Of a DNA stretch of 64,000 bases, positions 7,372 to 33,808 are shown piece after piece; within the stretch, counting starts at the first letter, position 1, and every line of letters starts with the position of its first letter. This stretch comes from Pedobacter sp. (GTDB taxonomy: Bacteria; Bacteroidota; Bacteroidia; Sphingobacteriales; Sphingobacteriaceae), in contig JAZQRH010000012.1 of assembly GCA_045629525.1 (NCBI GenBank), positions 24,023-88,022 of the forward strand, read 5' to 3'. Made by a program: the position numbers and the translations under genes. The notes under the pieces were generated by a model, which was not told the DNA's origin, ran no database searches, and saw only the letters and a list, made by a program, of their open reading frames with translations.

Positions 7372-7977
7372 TTATAGATTTTTTAAAGTTCCCCATAACG
7401 CTTTTTTAGCAGGTATGTCTGTATCTAAATCATGCAGGTTGTGGGTAAATATGATCTTGGTTTCTTCAAAATTTCCGAGCTGATGTAGTGTTTGAAATGG
7501 TATGCCCAAATGCTCATTAGAAACACCGAAAGCAAAAACAGTTTTGCATTTAAAGAAGGCTTTAAAATGTTCAAATTTTGCAGAGCTATAAGCCGAATAG
7601 TTAACCAAGGCGAAATCGGCATTTTTTAAGTTAATAGATAGCACTAACTTTCTCAATAACTCTGTACCCTGCGGTGTGCTAACTGGATTTTCTTTATCGT
7701 TTACTAAAATTAAAATTGACTTTTCATTTTTCCCTAAGTACTTAAATTCTAAAGAAGCTTTGGGATAGTTTGCAGTCGGCTCTTCAAGTTTCGGCAATGT
7801 GGCAGTTTTTTCGGCGGCAATTGGCTCATTTTTTTGCGTTTCCTCTTTGCTAATGCCTTCTTTTAGAGGCTCAATTTTAGCCGAAGTTAAAGTCTGCGGG
7901 TCACCCACTAAATATATATCATCATTAAAAAATAAACGGAGCGCTTCGTCGTTATTAATAAGTTGGTTGCTATTCAT
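7372..7977 (-). CDS. Conserved hypothetical protein, possibly DNA polymerase III psi (HolD)-like
   Basis: Clean 201-aa ORF co-oriented with rdgB; short N-terminal motif, low-complexity linker, alpha/beta domain ending L..L......KKALW..L. Confidence 0.6.
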   Translation of the reverse strand: MNSNQLINNDEALRLFFNDDIYLVGDPQTLTSAKIEPLKEGISKEETQKNEPIAAEKTATLPKLEEPTANYPKASLEFKYLGKNEKSILILVNDKENPVSTPQGTELLRKLVLSINLKNADFALVNYSAYSSAKFEHFKAFFKCKTVFAFGVSNEHLGIPFQTLHQLGNFEETKIIFTHNLHDLDTDIPAKKALWGTLKNL

Positions 7978-11853: not shown

Positions 11854-14724
11854 ATGAGTGAAGAATTAGACGGTTTTAACGAAACCAACTTGCCAGAAGA
11901 ACACGAAAATAAAAAGGCTGTAATACCTATTAATGGCCTGTACGAAAACTGGTTTCTTGATTATGCATCTTACGTAATTTTGGATAGGGCTGTGCCACAC
12001 ATTAACGATGGTTTTAAGCCTGTGCAGCGCCGCATTATGCACTCGCTAAAAGAAATGGATGATGGACGTTTTAATAAAGCGGCGAACGTTATTGGTAACA
12101 CCATGAAGTACCACCCGCATGGGGATGCCTCGATTGGGGATGCGATGGTGCAAATTGGACAAAAGGATTTATTGATTGATTGCCAAGGAAATTGGGGCGA
12201 CCCAATCACTGGCGATAGTGCTGCTGCACCCCGTTATATTGAGGCTCGCTTGTCGAAATTTGCAAACGAGGTTGTATTTAATGCGGATACCACGGTTTGG
12301 TCGCTAAGTTACGACGGTCGGAACAATGAACCACTAACTTTACCAGTTAAGTTTCCGTTGCTTTTAGCACAGGGAGCAGAAGGTATTGCAGTGGGTTTAG
12401 CAACCAAAATCATGCCCCACAACTTTAATGAGTTGTTAGACGCCTCGATAGAGGTGCTTAGAGGGGTTAGGCCGAATATCTTACCCGATTTCTTTACGGG
12501 AGGCATGGCCGATTTTACCAACTACAACGAAGGGCAGCGTGGTGGTAAAATTAGAGTTCGAGCTAAAATTACTGAGAAGGATAAGAAGACTTTAGTAATT
12601 ACTGAAGTTCCTTTCTCTACCACCACAGGTTCTTTAATTGATAGTATTTTGGCCGCCAATGATAAAGGCAAAATTAAAATCAAGAAAATTGAAGATAATA
12701 CTGCGGCAAATGTAGAAATTGTGGTGCATTTGGCGCCTGGCATTTCACCAGACGTAACCATTGATGCCCTTTATGCATTCACGGCGTGTGAGACTTCAAT
12801 ATCGCCAAATACTTGTATTATTAAGGATGATAAACCTCAGTTTTTAAGTGTTAATGATATTTTAGAGCAAAATACCAAGTTCACTAAATCCTTATTAAAA
12901 CAAGAGTTAGAAATTAGATTACACGAATTGCAAGAACGTATTTTCTTCAGTTCGTTATTAAAAATATTTATTCAACAAGGCATGTATAAAAACCCTGAAT
13001 ACGAAAATTCGGGCGATTTTGATACAGTGGTTACGGTATTGCACCGATTATTTGATCCATTTAAGCCTTTACTTTATCGAGAAATATTACCGGAAGATTT
13101 TAAGAAACTTATTGATAAGCCCATGAGTAGCATCACTCGTTTTGATGTGAAAAAAGCTGACGATCAGATGAAAGCATTGGAAGATGAGATTAAGGTGGTT
13201 AAAAATCACCTTCGTCATCTTACGGATTATACCATTGCTTGGTTTCAAAAAATTAAAGATAAATACGGAAAAGGTAGAGAGCGTAAAACGGAAATTAGGG
13301 TTTTTGATAAGGTAGAAGCTGCAAAAGTGGCTTTGGCTAACGTTAAACTCTATATGAACCGTGAAGATGGTTTTGTAGGTACTGCACTGCGTAAAGATGA
13401 ATTTGTTTGTGATTGCTCTGATATTGATGAAATTATTGTCTTTAGAGAAGACGGTAAGTTTATTGTAACCAAAGTTACCGACAAGATTTTTGTGGGCAAG
13501 CATATTATACATGCGCAAGTTTTCAAAAAGGGGGATGACCGTACCGTATACAACATGATTTATAAGGATGGAGCGAGCGGTATAAGTTACATCAAACGCT
13601 TCTCTGTTTTAGGCGTAACCCGAGATAAGGAATACGATTTAACGAAGGGTACAAAAGGCTCTAAGGTGTTGTATTTTACAGCAAATCCTAATGGAGAAGC
13701 CGAAATTATTACAGTACAATTGAAGCCGCATTCTAAGTTAAAAAAACTCGCCATAGATATCGACTTTGCAAATGTAGCCATTAAAGGCAGAGCATCCATG
13801 GGTAATATTGTGGTGAAGTTCCCGATTAAGAAAGTGCTTTTAAAAAGTAAGGGTGTTTCTACGCTTGCGGGGATCAAAATTTGGTACGACGATATTTTGA
13901 AACGCTTAAATGTTGATGGTAGAGGCAAGTATTTGGGAGAATTTGATGGCGACGATAAGATACTACAAGTGTATGCTAACGGAACTTATGAGCTCAGTAC
14001 TTTTGAACTCAATAATCACTTTGATGACGGCATTGTATTAATTCAAAAATTCAATCCAGAGCACGTATATGGTGTCGTGCACTACGATGGTAAGGCTAAA
14101 AATTACTTTGTAAAACGATTTATTTTTGAAACACAACCAATTGGCAAAGTTGTGAGCTTTATTAGTGAGGAAAATGGTTCTCGGATGATTTTTATTACTG
14201 GCAAGGCTGATGCACAGGTAAATGTAGATGTAGAGAAAGGCAAGTCGAAAACTCCTGAAACTTTGGAGCTAGACTTAGCAAGTTTGATTGATGTTAAGGG
14301 TTGGAAAGCCAATGGAAATCGCCTAACGGCACACGTAGTGAAAAAAGTAACTTTGCTTGATGCCGAACTAGAGATTGGCATACCTGAGCTTGTTGATTTA
14401 GACGAAACGGATGTTAATCAGGGAGGTGTTGATAATGATGCTGTGAATGAGATGGTAGTAGCTACGAGTATTGAAAGCGAATTTTCTGAAGATGTTGTGG
14501 AGGCGTCCGAAAGCAAAGAGGAGTTCGTTAAAGCTAAGCCTTCTTTTAAAACTACTGCAAAGCCCGCATCACCCGTAGCTTCTGATGCAGAAAAAATGGT
14601 CCCTAATAAGGAAGAAGCAAAGGGGGGCATAGAGCCCGCTGTTCAGAAAAAGAAAATATCATTTGAGATCACTAACCCCGGAGATATCAAGATAGATGAC
14701 AAAGGGCAGGGAAAGTTGTTTTAA
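11854..14724 (+). CDS. parC: DNA topoisomerase IV subunit A (GyrA/ParC family) with acidic C-terminal tail
   Basis: YASYVILDRAVP..DGFKPVQRR, KYHPHGD, AAAPRYIE (catalytic Tyr); Bacteroidota ParC-type N-terminus; no GyrA box seen. Confidence 0.88.
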   Translation: MSEELDGFNETNLPEEHENKKAVIPINGLYENWFLDYASYVILDRAVPHINDGFKPVQRRIMHSLKEMDDGRFNKAANVIGNTMKYHPHGDASIGDAMVQIGQKDLLIDCQGNWGDPITGDSAAAPRYIEARLSKFANEVVFNADTTVWSLSYDGRNNEPLTLPVKFPLLLAQGAEGIAVGLATKIMPHNFNELLDASIEVLRGVRPNILPDFFTGGMADFTNYNEGQRGGKIRVRAKITEKDKKTLVITEVPFSTTTGSLIDSILAANDKGKIKIKKIEDNTAANVEIVVHLAPGISPDVTIDALYAFTACETSISPNTCIIKDDKPQFLSVNDILEQNTKFTKSLLKQELEIRLHELQERIFFSSLLKIFIQQGMYKNPEYENSGDFDTVVTVLHRLFDPFKPLLYREILPEDFKKLIDKPMSSITRFDVKKADDQMKALEDEIKVVKNHLRHLTDYTIAWFQKIKDKYGKGRERKTEIRVFDKVEAAKVALANVKLYMNREDGFVGTALRKDEFVCDCSDIDEIIVFREDGKFIVTKVTDKIFVGKHIIHAQVFKKGDDRTVYNMIYKDGASGISYIKRFSVLGVTRDKEYDLTKGTKGSKVLYFTANPNGEAEIITVQLKPHSKLKKLAIDIDFANVAIKGRASMGNIVVKFPIKKVLLKSKGVSTLAGIKIWYDDILKRLNVDGRGKYLGEFDGDDKILQVYANGTYELSTFELNNHFDDGIVLIQKFNPEHVYGVVHYDGKAKNYFVKRFIFETQPIGKVVSFISEENGSRMIFITGKADAQVNVDVEKGKSKTPETLELDLASLIDVKGWKANGNRLTAHVVKKVTLLDAELEIGIPELVDLDETDVNQGGVDNDAVNEMVVATSIESEFSEDVVEASESKEEFVKAKPSFKTTAKPASPVASDAEKMVPNKEEAKGGIEPAVQKKKISFEITNPGDIKIDDKGQGKLF

Positions 14725-14729
14725 ATAGA

Positions 14730-14762
14730 AAATATGGAATACCATTTACGTATTCCATATTT
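14730..14762. terminator. Terminator hairpin between convergent parC and Trx-TPR gene
   Basis: AAATATGGAATAC-catttac-GTATTCCATATTT, 13-bp stem. Confidence 0.7.
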
Positions 14763-14846: not shown

Positions 14847-16304
14847 CTATAAGGTTTTGTTCTTCATTTTCTCTAGGTCTTTTTGCATATCCTCGTGCGG
14901 TGTTTTTTGAATTTTCGCTTTAGCTATCGCGTCTTTTTGTGTCTTAATGGCTTCCGTTTCGTATCCTAATCTATAAAGAAGATGGGCCAATGTATCGTAA
15001 TAAGCCGCTTTGGCACTCAGTTCAATGGATCGTCTGCTCCACAGTAAGGCCTTAGTTAAATAATTTACATTCGTAGTTCCTGTTTGATAAAACCCCCAAG
15101 CTGCGCTATTTAAAGTATTTGCATAGGCGTTATATTCGTAGCTATCTACTACAGCGTAGGTTTTTGTTTGGCTCACAGCTTCGGGATGTTGCTTTTTTAA
15201 CTGCTCCAATTCTGCATGGCTAACGTTTTTCTTTATATTCCCTTGGGTTTGATGTTTTTTTCGAATCTCATCGAACTGCGATTTTGTAACTACTTGAATG
15301 TTTCTATCTTCTTTATCGAATTTCTGTTCAGCAGACTCAATCCTTTGTTTTTCACTATACTTCTTTGTAGCCTCAGCATTTAGGGTCATATAATACCTGT
15401 CATAGTAGGGCACTGCTAGTTTAAGGTAACAAGATGTATCACCAACAGCCTTATAGTAGTTTATCATCTTGTTACTGTAGGCCCACTCACCATTTCTTGT
15501 ATCTTTACCATATACCGCCCTAGCGAAATAAGCTGCAAAGTATGCTTGTTTCGAATCTTTATATTTGATAGCATTTTTTAAAGTGTTTTCTATAATCTCT
15601 TGATTTATTGCAATCCTATCTTTTAAAGGCTCGTTATTATAAATACTATCGTAAATCTTTTTACTGTTCATCGCTAATTTATGCGCTTTACTATAAGCAT
15701 AGGGCGCACCTTTCAATATGTACAGTATAGTCTGATAATCGTTAAAATCTGCTGGCTCTAAATTTTTGGCAAATTCCTCTATTAATTCCGCATTGTCGGT
15801 TATGCCTTTCGCTTTTCGCGCTTCAATGTACCGCTTAAGTTTTTGGTTATTTAATTTATCCGATAGGTAACTATTTTCAAGATCATAAATACTCGAATCC
15901 TTGCTCTTAGATAAAGCTTGATCAATCATTCTAAAATATTTTTCTTTGAAAGTACTCGCTCCGCTTTCTGAATAAAACACCTCTTTAGTGGAGTGCATGA
16001 ATACAAATGCTGGAAGGTTCCGAATTTTATATAAGGATAGTATCGGTGCAATTGTTTTATCCGCTATAGTGGTCTCAAACACTAAAAACTCAGATTTAAA
16101 TTTTTTGATAACGTCGTTCTCCTGATGTGCGGATTTAATGTTGTGTTTGTGCTCTGCCGGAGGATAAACGATAACCAAGATTGGTTTTTTCTCTACTTCG
16201 GATTTTTTGATAGCACTTTCGAGTGAGGGGAACTCGGAAAGCTTCTGAGCTTTCAACTGGTGAAAGCAAACGATAAGCAGCATTGTAATTAATCGAGTTT
16301 TCAT
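14847..16304 (-). CDS. Secreted protein with thioredoxin-like N-domain (no CxxC) and C-terminal TPR
   Basis: Signal peptide; SLESAIKKSEVEKKPILV.. and PAFVFM Trx_7-like segment; LNSAAW.FY..KAL.WS.RSI..YYDTLAHLLYRLG..EA...Q TPR. Confidence 0.65.
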   Translation of the reverse strand: MKTRLITMLLIVCFHQLKAQKLSEFPSLESAIKKSEVEKKPILVIVYPPAEHKHNIKSAHQENDVIKKFKSEFLVFETTIADKTIAPILSLYKIRNLPAFVFMHSTKEVFYSESGASTFKEKYFRMIDQALSKSKDSSIYDLENSYLSDKLNNQKLKRYIEARKAKGITDNAELIEEFAKNLEPADFNDYQTILYILKGAPYAYSKAHKLAMNSKKIYDSIYNNEPLKDRIAINQEIIENTLKNAIKYKDSKQAYFAAYFARAVYGKDTRNGEWAYSNKMINYYKAVGDTSCYLKLAVPYYDRYYMTLNAEATKKYSEKQRIESAEQKFDKEDRNIQVVTKSQFDEIRKKHQTQGNIKKNVSHAELEQLKKQHPEAVSQTKTYAVVDSYEYNAYANTLNSAAWGFYQTGTTNVNYLTKALLWSRRSIELSAKAAYYDTLAHLLYRLGYETEAIKTQKDAIAKAKIQKTPHEDMQKDLEKMKNKTL

Positions 16305-32230: not shown

Positions 32231-33808
32231 GTGAAGAAAGTAATTATTGGTACTCGTGGTAGTGATTTGGCGTTGTGGCAAGCAAACTACACCAAAGATA
32301 GATTAGCCAGCATTGGGATAGAGGCAGAACTAAAAATCATTAAAACGCAGGGCGATAAAATCCTGAACCTCAGGTTGGATAAGCTAGAAGGTAAGGGTTT
32401 TTTCACTAAGGAGTTAGAGGAAGAGTTGCTAGCTGGTACGATTGATATGGCCGTTCATTCTCATAAAGATTTACCAACAACCAATCCTCCTGGTTTAATC
32501 ATCGCTGCAGTACCAGAGCGTGAAGACTCTGCAGAATTGTTGTTAATACTGAAAGATTGCGTAGATGTAACTCAAAAATTGTCGCTTAAGAAGGGCGCAA
32601 TGGTGGGTACGTCTTCCAACAGACGTAAAGCACAACTTCTGGCTGCTCGCCCAGATTTAAATATAGAAGATTTACGAGGTAACGTACCTACACGTATCCA
32701 AAAACTACGCGACGAAAATTACGATGCCATTGTACTTGCAAAGGCAGGCGTTAGTCGTCTGGGCTTAGACCTCAGTGAATTTCACGTAGAGGTTGTAGAT
32801 ACTACAGAGTTAGTGCCAGCACCCGCTCAAGGAGCTTTAGCCATTCAAATTAGAGAAAGCGATACTGAGCTTTTTAACGAGCTTCAAAAAATACACAATC
32901 CGGCAATTGCCGAAGCTATTGCGGTAGAGCGTAAGGTGTTAAACCTGTTTGAAGGTGGCTGCCATATGCCTCTGGGTTGTTACTGCAAAAAGGAAAACGA
33001 TCAGTTCGAAGTTTGGACCTCGAAGGCTGAAAGCGATGAGCATTTTCCAGATCGTTTTTACATTAAATCGGCTACTTCCGCAGGCTTAGCTGAACAGATT
33101 GTTGCGAAGTTCAATACAGAAAGAAAATTCCCTGCGCAGGTTTTTATAACCAGAGAAGTAGGAGAGCATAGCTATTTCGGCAAAGCTTTAGCTAAACACA
33201 ATATGCAAATTGATGGACGTTCATTAATTCGAACTTTTCCTATCGTTACCGTTATAGATGATTTCTTCCTCAAAAATGCTGATTGGATTATGTTTAGCAG
33301 TAGAAATGCTGTTGAATACTTCTTCAAACTAAATCCGGTATTACCGAAAAAGGTAAAATTTGCTGTTGTAGGAAGAGGCTCTGAAGATTCCCTTCGCAAA
33401 GTTGGTCACTTGGCTGATTTTGTAGGTGAAGGAGGAGATATTCTAGAAGTTGCCGAAGAATTTGCGAAAATAGTAGCCGGAACAACTGTGGTATTTCCTA
33501 GGGCACAGGATTCTTTACTGACCATGCAGAAATTCTTAACGCCAGATACTAAAATTATAGACTTGCCTATCTACGAAACGGTTCAAGAAGAAAATGTAGC
33601 GGGTTCTTCTGCAGAGGTGCTTATCTTCACTAGCCCAAGCAACGTCGAGGCTTATTTTGTAGATAACTTGCTAGAATCAGGTCAAAAAGTTATAGCGATT
33701 GGAAGCTCTACAGGCAAAAAGTTTGATGATATGGGCGTGCCTTATGCATTGCCTTATTCGCCAGATGAGATTGGCTTGGCTGAAGCTGTTTTCGGCATCG
33801 AGTTATAA
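32231..33808 (+). CDS. hemC: Hydroxymethylbilane synthase / uroporphyrinogen-III synthase fusion (HemC-HemD)
   Basis: GTRGSDLALWQA, KGFFTKELE, AVHSHKD, GTSSNRR, RGNV.TR, LFEGGC; C-terminal HemD-like domain (FSSRNAV..F, AVVG.GS, FTSPSNV..Y, AIG.STG). Confidence 0.95.
   Translation: MKKVIIGTRGSDLALWQANYTKDRLASIGIEAELKIIKTQGDKILNLRLDKLEGKGFFTKELEEELLAGTIDMAVHSHKDLPTTNPPGLIIAAVPEREDSAELLLILKDCVDVTQKLSLKKGAMVGTSSNRRKAQLLAARPDLNIEDLRGNVPTRIQKLRDENYDAIVLAKAGVSRLGLDLSEFHVEVVDTTELVPAPAQGALAIQIRESDTELFNELQKIHNPAIAEAIAVERKVLNLFEGGCHMPLGCYCKKENDQFEVWTSKAESDEHFPDRFYIKSATSAGLAEQIVAKFNTERKFPAQVFITREVGEHSYFGKALAKHNMQIDGRSLIRTFPIVTVIDDFFLKNADWIMFSSRNAVEYFFKLNPVLPKKVKFAVVGRGSEDSLRKVGHLADFVGEGGDILEVAEEFAKIVAGTTVVFPRAQDSLLTMQKFLTPDTKIIDLPIYETVQEENVAGSSAEVLIFTSPSNVEAYFVDNLLESGQKVIAIGSSTGKKFDDMGVPYALPYSPDEIGLAEAVFGIEL

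What the first reader, a model, noticed from the sequence alone, without database searches (positions are those of the whole stretch)
14380..14724. ParC ends in an acidic disordered tether capped by a beta-clamp-like motif (QGKLF)
After the pinwheel domain ParC has about 110 low-complexity residues rich in E, D, A, S and P, and it ends ...DDKGQGKLF* (14707-14721). Q-x-x-L-F at a flexible C-terminus is the layout of DnaN clamp-binding motifs (consensus QL[S/D]LF). Inference: topoisomerase IV may be tethered directly to sliding clamps behind the fork to remove precatenanes. I do not know this recruitment route from model organisms. G at position 2 is a departure from consensus.
Basis: inference. 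Interest (0 to 1): 0.65.

Follow-up and report, generated by a model that had tools for sequence, protein, structure and literature searches.

The report
Topoisomerase IV tail with clamp-binding motif
The DNA-untangling enzyme subunit ParC of this Pedobacter-like bacterium ends in a floppy tail tipped with a short peptide (QGKLF) that is kept in nearly all Bacteroidota and matches the peptide replication proteins use to grip the sliding clamp, so untangling may be tied to freshly copied DNA, but binding has not been tested.

Summary
ORF 11854-14724 (+) encodes a 956-aa Bacteroidota-type topoisomerase IV subunit A (NCBIfam NF009397, 1406.7 bits). Residues 841-956 are predicted disordered, and the protein ends ...DDKGQGKLF*.

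- 119 of 120 close homologues end in Q-x-x-[LIMF]-F. QLGLF is the commonest ending.
- In 80 species across Bacteroidota, 78 carry Q-x-x-φ-[FL] or a hexapeptide variant in the last 14 residues. Shuffling gives 2.0.
- The preceding linker varies from 14 to 206 residues and diverges in sequence.
- Q, L at position 4 and F at position 5 are the fixed positions. These are the positions critical for β-clamp binding in known clamp-binding motifs (QL[S/D]LF, or QxxLF).
- Fibrobacteria-like and Calditrichota-like relatives have the motif too. Short relatives of about 650 aa mostly lack it.

No paper in the searched library links bacterial Topo IV to the clamp. Binding could not be modelled or measured here, so the mechanism remains an inference (about 0.6). 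A second, patchier motif (ISFEITNP) lies 10 residues upstream of Q952 and has no known partner.

The parts
11854..14724 (+). parC: Bacteroidota-type topoisomerase IV subunit A, 956 aa plus stop codon
   Evidence: ORF list and translation. NF009397 scores 1406.7 bits against a cut-off of 780. 120 homologues at 72-85% identity are named 'DNA gyrase/topoisomerase IV subunit A' or 'topoisomerase-4 subunit A' and come mostly from Pedobacter.
11986..13236 (+). DNA breakage-reunion domain (residues 45-461), including the invariant R127-Y128 of the catalytic-tyrosine motif
   Evidence: PF00521, E = 5.5e-105. PDB sequence hits to GyrA/ParC cover residues 30-372. R127 and Y128 are invariant in the 101-sequence alignment.
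13291..14373 (+). Beta-rich C-terminal domain (about residues 480-840), GyrA/ParC-CTD-like, without a GyrA box
   Evidence: AF2 pLDDT is about 90 and the domain is all-beta. Foldseek aligns 916-947 columns to full-length ParC/GyrA: 9a68_A, 6rkw_A. No [QK][RK][RK]GG[RK]G pattern is present.
14374..14721 (+). Disordered C-terminal tail (residues 841-956), net charge -11, divergent in sequence and length among relatives
   Evidence: pLDDT is below 50 with no secondary structure. The top-residue fraction in columns 841-920 is 0.33-0.40, against about 0.9 in the body. Tail length is 14-206 aa across the 101 sequences of alignment A2 (80 species plus 21 close homologues).
14647..14721 (+). Conserved 25-residue terminal module KKKISFEITNPGDIKIDDKGQGKLF (residues 932-956)
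   Evidence: The top-residue fraction is 0.86 for the last 16 residues. The module is shared by Pedobacter, Mucilaginibacter and Pseudopedobacter. Compared with L001, 11 codons differ synonymously and 6 non-synonymously over 22 codons.
14656..14679 (+). Second short motif ('motif A'), ISFEITNP (residues 935-942), partner unknown
   Evidence: [IVLM]-x-[FW]-[ED]-φ lies upstream of the Q motif in 13 of 80 species, against 0.7 expected. [FLW]E[IV][TKQIS][NR] occurs in 10 of 80, against 0.1 expected. It is found in Sphingobacteriales, Cytophagales (IPFEIKNLP), Bacteroidales (IPFEIQRPG) and Odoribacter (VEFEVTNP).
14707..14721 (+). Clamp-binding-motif-like pentapeptide QGKLF at the C-terminus (residues 952-956)
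   Evidence: Sequence. 119 of 120 close homologues end in Q..[LIMF]F. 78 of 80 Bacteroidota species carry the motif, with Q in 78 of 78, L at +3 in 71 of 78 and F at +4 in 59 of 78. Shuffle controls.
14730..14762 (.). 13-pair hairpin between the convergent parC and ORF 14847-16304; the scan scored it as a terminator on the minus strand
   Evidence: Terminator-like site; shuffles give a mean of 0.2 such sites.

Best explanation
The last five residues of ParC (QGKLF, residues 952-956) are a functional short linear motif of the beta-sliding-clamp-binding kind (QL[S/D]LF, or QxxLF). It sits on a disordered tail that begins where the C-terminal DNA-binding domain ends.

Shown here:
- The motif exists and lies in a region predicted to be disordered.
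- It is under strong purifying selection across Bacteroidota and in Fibrobacteria-like and Calditrichota-like relatives, while the linker drifts in sequence and length.
- The positions that are fixed (Q1, L4, F5) are those needed for clamp binding in known clients.

Inferred:
- The motif inserts into the hydrophobic cleft of DnaN.
- Each ParC2ParE2 enzyme would then carry two such anchors and be concentrated on DNA-loaded clamps, which mark newly replicated DNA behind the fork.
- There it would remove precatenanes and catenanes.
- This would stand in for the MukB and SeqA routes that recruit Topo IV in E. coli.

G at position 2 in this genome suggests a weaker-than-consensus binder. The upstream ISFEITNP motif may add a second contact, with the clamp or with another partner.
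For: - Close relatives: 119 of 120 homologues (72-85% identity) end in Q..[LIMF]F. The endings are QLGLF 47, QLGFF 29, QGSLF 13, QTKLF 12 and QSLLF 7.
- Column conservation: about 0.9 in the body, 0.33-0.40 in linker residues 841-920, and 0.86 in the last 16 residues.
- One genome per species: 78 of 80 Bacteroidota species have the motif in the last 14 residues. The remaining two have QPSLF or QASLF slightly further upstream.
- Shuffle controls: loose motif 78 observed against a mean of 2.0 (maximum 8 in 1000 shuffles); strict motif 46 observed against 0.03.
- Position tallies: Q 78/78; +1 is M 21, L 19, I 16; +2 is T/S/E/G/K; +3 is L 71/78; +4 is F 59/78; the rest are hexapeptide forms such as QITLEF and QMSLEF.
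- Published rule: consensus QL[S/D]LF or QxxLF, with positions 1, 4 and 5 critical. B. subtilis DnaE uses QMGLF (PMC12309361).
- Accessibility: the tail has pLDDT below 50 and does not dock on the ParC body.
- Position tolerance: the motif is followed by 1-15 extra residues in 23 of 80 species, as expected for a clamp-binding motif that works internally or terminally.
- Level of selection: synonymous codon changes dominate in the module, so selection acts on the protein.
- Wider relatives: Fibrobacteria-like ParC proteins end in QLSLL, QLSFL or QMSLL, and Calditrichota-like ones in Q.DLF.
Against: - No binding data exist, and no complex model could be made. The structure tool folds single unmodified chains only.
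- DnaN of this genome could not be fetched because genome search was shut.
- No bona fide clamp client from Bacteroidota was available for comparing motif flavour, and GyrA was not available as a paralogue control.
- This genome's QGKLF lacks the hydrophobic residue at position 2 that contributes to binding in model peptides.
- A second conserved motif upstream, and the acidic run just before Q, show that more than a plain pentapeptide is under selection. This could point to a different or additional partner.
- QxxLF-like peptides are short and can arise for other reasons.
- No literature supports a bacterial Topo IV-clamp contact.
Confidence: 0.6

Rival explanations
1. The conserved end, with or without the ISFEITNP motif, docks on a partner other than DnaN. 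Candidates are ParE, SMC-ScpAB (by analogy with MukB-ParC in E. coli), or a Bacteroidota-specific regulator. The resemblance to a clamp-binding motif would then be coincidental.
For: - A second motif upstream is enriched: 13 of 80 species against 0.7 expected.
- The two motifs can swap order. Cyclobacteriaceae-like ParC proteins have QASLF upstream and end in GETIELEL.
- An acidic run and a G precede Q in most species.
- E. coli Topo IV is known to use protein partners (MukB, SeqA), not the clamp.
Against: - The fixed positions (Q1, L4, F5) and the allowed variation (M/L/I at position 2, free position 3, hexapeptide forms ending in x-F) coincide with clamp-binding-motif rules at every constrained position.
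- The commonest Pedobacter form, QLGLF, is to my knowledge identical to the C-terminal clamp motif of E. coli Pol II.
- AF2 does not dock the tail on ParC itself.
Confidence: 0.22
2. The tail is mainly an autoregulatory acidic element like the C-terminal tail of E. coli GyrA. It would mimic DNA and tune DNA binding by the C-terminal domain. The terminal hydrophobic residues would anchor it back onto ParC.
For: The tail is acidic overall, with a net charge of -11 to -14 here and a median of -15 across the 101 sequences of alignment A2. It begins directly after the DNA-binding C-terminal domain.
Against: - The acidic linker is not the conserved part. Chitinophagales tails are 14-16 aa with net charge 0 to -4, and two species have +1.
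- The conserved element is the Q-x-x-L-F tip.
- AF2 places the tail nowhere on the body, with pLDDT below 50.
- This reading does not explain the invariant Q.
Confidence: 0.1
3. The end is recognised through its free C-terminus. It would be either an SSB-tip-like hub peptide (acidic run plus hydrophobic-F-COOH) or a C-terminal degron for a cytoplasmic protease.
For: Acidic residues precede a hydrophobic C-terminal Phe. Some relatives even contain DDIPF upstream, in IPFEI-type motif A.
Against: - In 23 of 80 species the motif is followed by extra residues (QLNLFGDEEI, QMKLFKEDDDA, QPSLFDAIEEDNNNAEEN), so a free carboxylate on the Phe is not required.
- Q is invariant, and there is no Pro at the -2 position from the end, unlike SSB tips.
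- The DDIPF instances are internal.
Confidence: 0.05
4. Chance or annotation artefact: the ending has no function.
For: A five-residue pattern in a single genome is weak on its own. By a rough composition estimate made here, not computed, a genome of about 4000 proteins would hold one or two C-terminal Q..[LIMF]F by chance.
Against: Phylum-wide conservation against shuffled and diverging background. Synonymous substitutions within the module. A hairpin directly after the stop codon.
Confidence: 0.01

Closest known systems
Beta-clamp clients with a terminal clamp-binding motif (consensus QL[S/D]LF or QxxLF: B. subtilis PolC C-terminal QLSLF, B. subtilis DnaE QMGLF, E. coli Hda-type QLSLPL; from memory also E. 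coli Pol II QLGLF, Pol IV QLVLGL and DnaE QVELEF)
   Same: A Q-x-x-L-F peptide at the end of a flexible segment. The same positions are fixed (1, 4, 5). The same pentapeptide and hexapeptide variants occur, and terminal or near-terminal placement is tolerated.
   Different: The carrier is a type IIA topoisomerase, which is absent from published lists of bacterial clamp partners (PMC9690074). Binding is untested. This genome has G at position 2. An acidic run, a G before Q and a second motif upstream are co-conserved.
E. coli Topo IV recruitment by MukB (which binds the ParC C-terminal domain) and by SeqA
   Same: Protein-protein contacts place the decatenase on newly replicated or origin-proximal DNA (PMC11253446).
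   Different: Those contacts involve the folded ParC domain and gamma-proteobacterial partners. Here the candidate handle is a linear motif on a disordered tail, and the proposed hub is the universal sliding clamp.
E. coli topoisomerase III at the fork, via SSB and the DnaX complex
   Same: A decatenating topoisomerase is held near the replisome by replisome components to remove precatenanes (PMC7140829).
   Different: It is a type IA enzyme, its partners are different (SSB, clamp loader), and no clamp-binding motif is involved.
Eukaryotic PCNA partners Topo II-alpha and Topo I
   Same: A sliding clamp is listed as a partner of a type II topoisomerase (table in PMC9690074).
   Different: A different clamp (PCNA) and a different motif class (PIP box). 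There is no homology of the tails.
Acidic C-terminal tail of E. coli GyrA
   Same: A disordered acidic extension directly after the beta-pinwheel domain of a type IIA A subunit.
   Different: To my knowledge the GyrA tail has no conserved Q-x-x-L-F tip and acts in cis on DNA wrapping. Here the tip is conserved and the acidity is not.

Membership tests
Bacteroidota-type topoisomerase IV subunit A (NCBIfam NF009397 / PRK12758) | Whole-protein score above the curated cut-off | tested here: met
   1406.7 bits against a cut-off of 780; profile positions 6-830 of 870 are matched.
Bacteroidota-type topoisomerase IV subunit A (NCBIfam NF009397 / PRK12758) | Type IIA breakage-reunion domain with the catalytic R-Y | tested here: met
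   PF00521 covers residues 45-461, E = 5.5e-105. R127 and Y128 are invariant in 101 sequences.
Bacteroidota-type topoisomerase IV subunit A (NCBIfam NF009397 / PRK12758) | ParC-like rather than GyrA-like C-terminal domain (no GyrA box) | tested here: met
   No [QK][RK][RK]GG[RK]G pattern. The all-beta CTD aligns to full-length ParC/GyrA structures. Decatenase activity itself was not tested.
Beta-sliding-clamp-binding motif (CBM) clients | Peptide matching QL[S/D]LF or QxxLF | tested here: met
   QGKLF at residues 952-956 fits QxxLF but departs from QL[S/D]LF at positions 2 and 3. Orthologues mostly have QLGLF, QMSLF or QITLF.
Beta-sliding-clamp-binding motif (CBM) clients | Conservation of positions 1, 4 and 5 among orthologues while the flanks vary | tested here: met
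   Q 78/78, L 71/78 and F 59/78, plus x-F hexapeptide forms. The linker varies from 14 to 206 aa and diverges in sequence.
Beta-sliding-clamp-binding motif (CBM) clients | Motif lies in an exposed, flexible segment | tested here: met
   AF2 gives pLDDT below 50 and no secondary structure for residues 841-956. This is a prediction only.
Beta-sliding-clamp-binding motif (CBM) clients | Physical binding to the hydrophobic cleft of DnaN | not testable with these tools
   The structure tool folds single unmodified chains.
Beta-sliding-clamp-binding motif (CBM) clients | Function or localisation depends on the motif | not testable with these tools
   This needs genetics and imaging.
SSB C-terminal-tip-like hub peptides (acidic run plus I-P-F-COOH) | Recognition of the free C-terminal Phe carboxylate, with a Pro-Phe end | tested here: not met
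   No Pro precedes the terminal Phe, and Q is invariant. In 23 of 80 species residues follow the motif.
GyrA-type acidic autoregulatory tail | Acidity of the tail is the conserved property | tested here: not met
   Net charge ranges from +1 to -40. Chitinophagales tails are 14-16 aa and nearly neutral, yet keep the Q motif.

The most novel reading that the evidence does not exclude
Across the Fibrobacterota-Calditrichota-Bacteroidota group, topoisomerase IV is a direct client of the replication sliding clamp. Two clamp-binding tips per ParC2ParE2 enzyme, in some lineages reinforced by a second upstream motif, would hitch the decatenase to clamps left on nascent DNA. Unlinking of sister duplexes would then be physically coupled to replication. 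This route is absent from E. coli and B. subtilis textbooks. It would replace the MukB/SeqA logic in a whole major branch of bacteria.
Probability: 0.5. Interest if true: 0.75.

Novelty: new member of a known kind. Interest (0 to 1): 0.6.

Why it matters
How bacteria outside the gamma-proteobacteria bring Topo IV to freshly replicated DNA is poorly understood. The known recruiters, MukB and SeqA, are restricted in distribution.

A clamp-binding tip on ParC conserved across a phylum would give a simple and general answer for Bacteroidota, which include major gut and environmental bacteria. It would add a type II topoisomerase to the bacterial clamp 'tool-belt'. It would also mean that clamp-cleft inhibitors might disturb chromosome unlinking as well as synthesis.

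The hypothesis is cheap to test, with peptide binding assays and a five-residue truncation.

Earlier notes of this scan report clamp-like motifs on Topo IV in other lineages: Clostridia ParC N-termini, and a mini-protein in Burkholderiales parE-parC operons. I did not check these here. If they hold, the link would have arisen repeatedly.

Tried and rejected
No in-genome comparison of motif flavour was possible, and no GyrA paralogue control.
- Prediction of a peptide-DnaN complex: not possible. The structure tool takes one unmodified chain, so only ParC alone was folded.
- Gene neighbourhood: no parE, dnaN or other replication gene lies next to parC. The neighbours are a SurA-like PPIase, a MoxR ATPase, an NMN transporter and an acyl-CoA dehydrogenase-like protein. 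Ten further ORFs, from 25287 to the window's end, are metabolic or envelope genes. Context therefore gives no help.
- Tandem DNA repeats as the origin of the tail, as noted for another Bacteroidota genome: none here.
- Pfam and PDB sequence search for the C-terminal domain: no hit beyond residue 461 or 372 respectively. Only the fold comparison covers it.
- The 50%-identity representative library gave many fragments and frameshifted junk. I used it only as a lead and replaced it with the one-genome-per-species scan.
- SSB-tip, degron, acidic autoregulatory-tail and chance readings were considered and ranked low, for the reasons given under the rival explanations.
- Nine literature searches found no report of a bacterial Topo IV-clamp contact. 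The library lacks most subscription journals, so absence is not proof.
Full report
**1. What is there**

The window holds a single long ORF at 11854-14724 on the + strand (956 aa). It ends ...KKKISFEITNPGDIKIDDKGQGKLF followed by TAA. A 13-pair hairpin at 14730-14762 sits between this gene and the convergent ORF 14847-16304.

Pfam finds the type IIA breakage-reunion domain at residues 45-461 (PF00521, E = 5.5e-105). NCBIfam places the protein in NF009397/PRK12758, 'DNA gyrase/topoisomerase IV subunit A', at 1406.7 bits against a cut-off of 780. The closest database proteins are 72-85% identical and come mostly from Pedobacter and other Sphingobacteriaceae. Their sources name them topoisomerase IV subunit A. 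There is no GyrA box. I accept the ParC assignment; decatenase activity was of course not tested.

**2. Anatomy of the protein**

AlphaFold2 was run on a 101-sequence alignment. It gives a confident body for residues 39-840 (mostly pLDDT above 85) with an all-beta C-terminal half. Residues 841-956 have pLDDT below 50 and no secondary structure, and the tail does not pack against the body.

Foldseek against the PDB aligns 916-947 columns to full-length ParC and GyrA models (9a68_A, 6rkw_A). The C-terminal half is therefore GyrA/ParC-CTD-like, although neither Pfam nor PDB sequence search recognises it.

The tail has 25 acidic and 14 basic residues among 116, a net charge of -11. Its first two thirds are acidic. 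Its last third is lysine-rich and mixed. It is not made of tandem DNA repeats.

**3. The conservation test**

Among the 120 closest homologues, 119 end in Q-x-x-[LIMF]-F: QLGLF 47, QLGFF 29, QGSLF 13, QTKLF 12, QSLLF 7 and QGKLF 2. In their alignment the commonest residue accounts for about 0.9 of each column in the body. It accounts for only 0.33-0.40 in linker residues 841-920, and 0.86 in the last 16 residues.

*Across the phylum.* A scan of one genome per species returned 80 loci across Sphingobacteriales, Flavobacteriales, Bacteroidales, Cytophagales, Chitinophagales and Marinilabiliales. I read each ParC ORF to its stop codon.
- 78 of 80 carry Q..[LIMFV][FLW] or Q..[LIMFV].[FLWM] within the last 14 residues, and 57 of these end exactly at the C-terminus.
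- The two exceptions have QPSLF or QASLF a little further upstream.
- Shuffling the last 60 residues of each protein gives 2.0 loose matches on average (maximum 8 in 1000 trials). It gives 0.03 strict terminal matches, against 46 observed.

*Which positions are fixed.* Aligned on Q, the tallies are as follows:

| Position | Residues |
|---|---|
| Q | 78/78 |
| +1 | M 21, L 19, I 16 |
| +2 | T, S, E, G, K |
| +3 | L 71/78 |
| +4 | F 59/78; the remainder are hexapeptide forms such as QITLEF, QMSLEF, QINFDF |
| upstream | D/E-rich, often with G just before Q |

*Linker and codons.* Measured on alignment A2 (80 species plus 21 close homologues), the region after the folded domain ranges from 14 to 206 residues, with a median of 57. 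Its net charge runs from +1 to -40. Chitinophagales have 14-16-residue, almost neutral tails that still end in QPELF, QTELF or QASLF. Between the window and Pedobacter sp. Hv1, the last 22 codons differ at 17 codons, 11 of them synonymously. Selection therefore acts on the peptide, not on a DNA element.

*Beyond Bacteroidota.* A search seeded with a Fibrobacteria MAG protein found its nearest relatives ending in QLSLL, QLSFL or QMSLL. A Calditrichota-like group ends in Q-x-D-L-F plus 1-4 residues. Overall, 70 of 77 long hits carry the motif. Only 2 of 42 short relatives (636-706 aa), which lack most of the C-terminal domain, do so.

**4. What the motif looks like**

A recent experimental paper states that the commonest bacterial clamp-binding motif is QL[S/D]LF, 'or more generally QxxLF'. 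It states that mutations at positions 1, 4 and 5 weaken or abolish binding. It also reports that B. subtilis DnaE uses QMGLF and PolC a C-terminal QLSLF (PMC12309361).

The ParC ends follow the same rule position by position. From memory, QLGLF is also the C-terminal clamp motif of E. coli Pol II, and QVELEF-type hexapeptides occur at the end of E. coli DnaE.

In 23 of 80 species the motif is followed by a few residues (QLNLFGDEEI, QMKLFKEDDDA). This fits a clamp-binding motif, which works internally or terminally. It argues against readers of a free C-terminus, such as SSB-tip binders or C-degron proteases.

The window's own QGKLF has G at position 2. This is a feature of a small Pedobacter subclade (QGSLF, QGKLF) and probably means a weaker binder.

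**5. Most likely mechanism**

My best reading, at about 0.6, is that the tip binds the hydrophobic cleft of DnaN. Each ParC2ParE2 enzyme would carry two such anchors on flexible leashes. DnaN rings remain on newly synthesised DNA behind the fork (established knowledge from model organisms). The enzyme would therefore be enriched where precatenanes form.

The existence, accessibility and conservation of the motif are shown. Binding, and everything downstream of binding, is inferred.

**6. Rival readings**

- *Another partner.* The tip may bind ParE, SMC-ScpAB or an unknown regulator. The main support is that more than the pentapeptide is conserved. In Sphingobacteriaceae a 25-residue module is kept. 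Its upstream part (ISFEITNP here) recurs as IPFEIKNLP, IPFEIQRPG, VEFEVTNP or MEWDL in scattered orders: 13 of 80 species against 0.7 expected. In a Cyclobacteriaceae-like group the order is swapped, with QASLF upstream and GETIELEL at the very end. These alternating hydrophobic-acidic hexapeptides resemble Q-less versions of the hexapeptide clamp motif. A bivalent clamp tail is therefore possible, but I could not test it.
- *Acidic autoregulatory tail, as in E. coli GyrA.* This is unlikely to be the main point, because acidity is not conserved while the tip is.
- *Chance.* Excluded.

**7. Comparison with what is known**

Nine full-text searches found no paper linking bacterial Topo IV or ParC to the sliding clamp.
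- Reviews of E. coli and B. subtilis replication name MukB and SeqA as Topo IV partners.
- A review on type IA topoisomerases places E. coli Topo III at the fork through SSB and the DnaX complex.
- A review of clamp partners lists no bacterial topoisomerase, though it lists PCNA-Topo II-alpha in eukaryotes.
- A structural interactome study reports DnaN-PolA but nothing for ParC.

The library omits most subscription journals, so this is absence of evidence only.

Earlier notes of this scan had already seen a conserved Q-motif at Bacteroidota ParC ends in another genome (e1-2130543). My 80-species count independently agrees with that. The notes also report clamp-like motifs on Clostridia ParC N-termini and on a mini-protein inside Burkholderiales parE-parC operons. 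I did not check those.

**8. Limits**

Genome search was shut. I could not retrieve this organism's DnaN or GyrA, or its accepted clamp clients. I could not model a complex. The gene neighbourhood is uninformative.

**9. Verdict**

The interpretation passes the one test that could be run and remains a well-founded, untested hypothesis. It is a new candidate client of a known kind of docking motif, conserved across a phylum, and cheap to test experimentally.

Noticed in passing
window 14656-14679 (residues 935-942, ISFEITNP): A second short motif lies 10 residues upstream of Q952, the start of the terminal Q motif. Related forms (IPFEIKNLP, IPFEIQRPG, VEFEVTNP, MEWDL, GDTIEFDF) occur patchily in several Bacteroidota orders: 13 of 80 species against 0.7 expected. 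Its partner is unknown. It resembles a Q-less hexapeptide clamp motif.
   Followed up: partly
L011:1501-4251 (Cyclobacteriaceae MAG); also P0373 and P0384: In this group the two tail motifs are in swapped order: QASLF or QPSLF lies upstream, and the protein ends in GETIELEL, GDTIELEL or GDTVEW. This suggests two independent linear motifs.
   Followed up: no
P0277-P0334 (hits, 636-706 aa): A large group of shorter relatives of this ParC family end soon after the first part of the C-terminal domain, in basic tails (..VKKVERKTKLP..). They mostly lack the Q motif (2 of 42 have it). Their taxonomy was not established.
   Followed up: no
L048, L056, L057, L060, L067, L072, L075, L079 (Chitinophagales): These ParC tails are only 14-16 residues long, so the Q-x-E-L-F tip sits almost directly on the folded domain. 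A long leash is therefore not required.
   Followed up: partly
window 7372-7977 (-): A 201-aa ORF with no Pfam family. Its N-terminus (..ALRLFFNDDIYLV) is followed by an E/K/P/T-rich linker.
   Followed up: no
window 14847-16304 (-): A 485-aa ORF convergent with parC. It has a hydrophobic N-terminus that looks like a signal peptide and no Pfam hit.
   Followed up: no
window 32231-33808 (+): A single ORF combines porphobilinogen deaminase (HemC) and uroporphyrinogen-III synthase (HemD) domains. It lies directly after a glutamyl-tRNA reductase gene.
   Followed up: no
window 11854-11967 (residues 1-38): The N-terminal 38 residues of ParC are also predicted disordered, and the first 20 are poorly conserved. 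No clamp-like motif is present there.
   Followed up: partly
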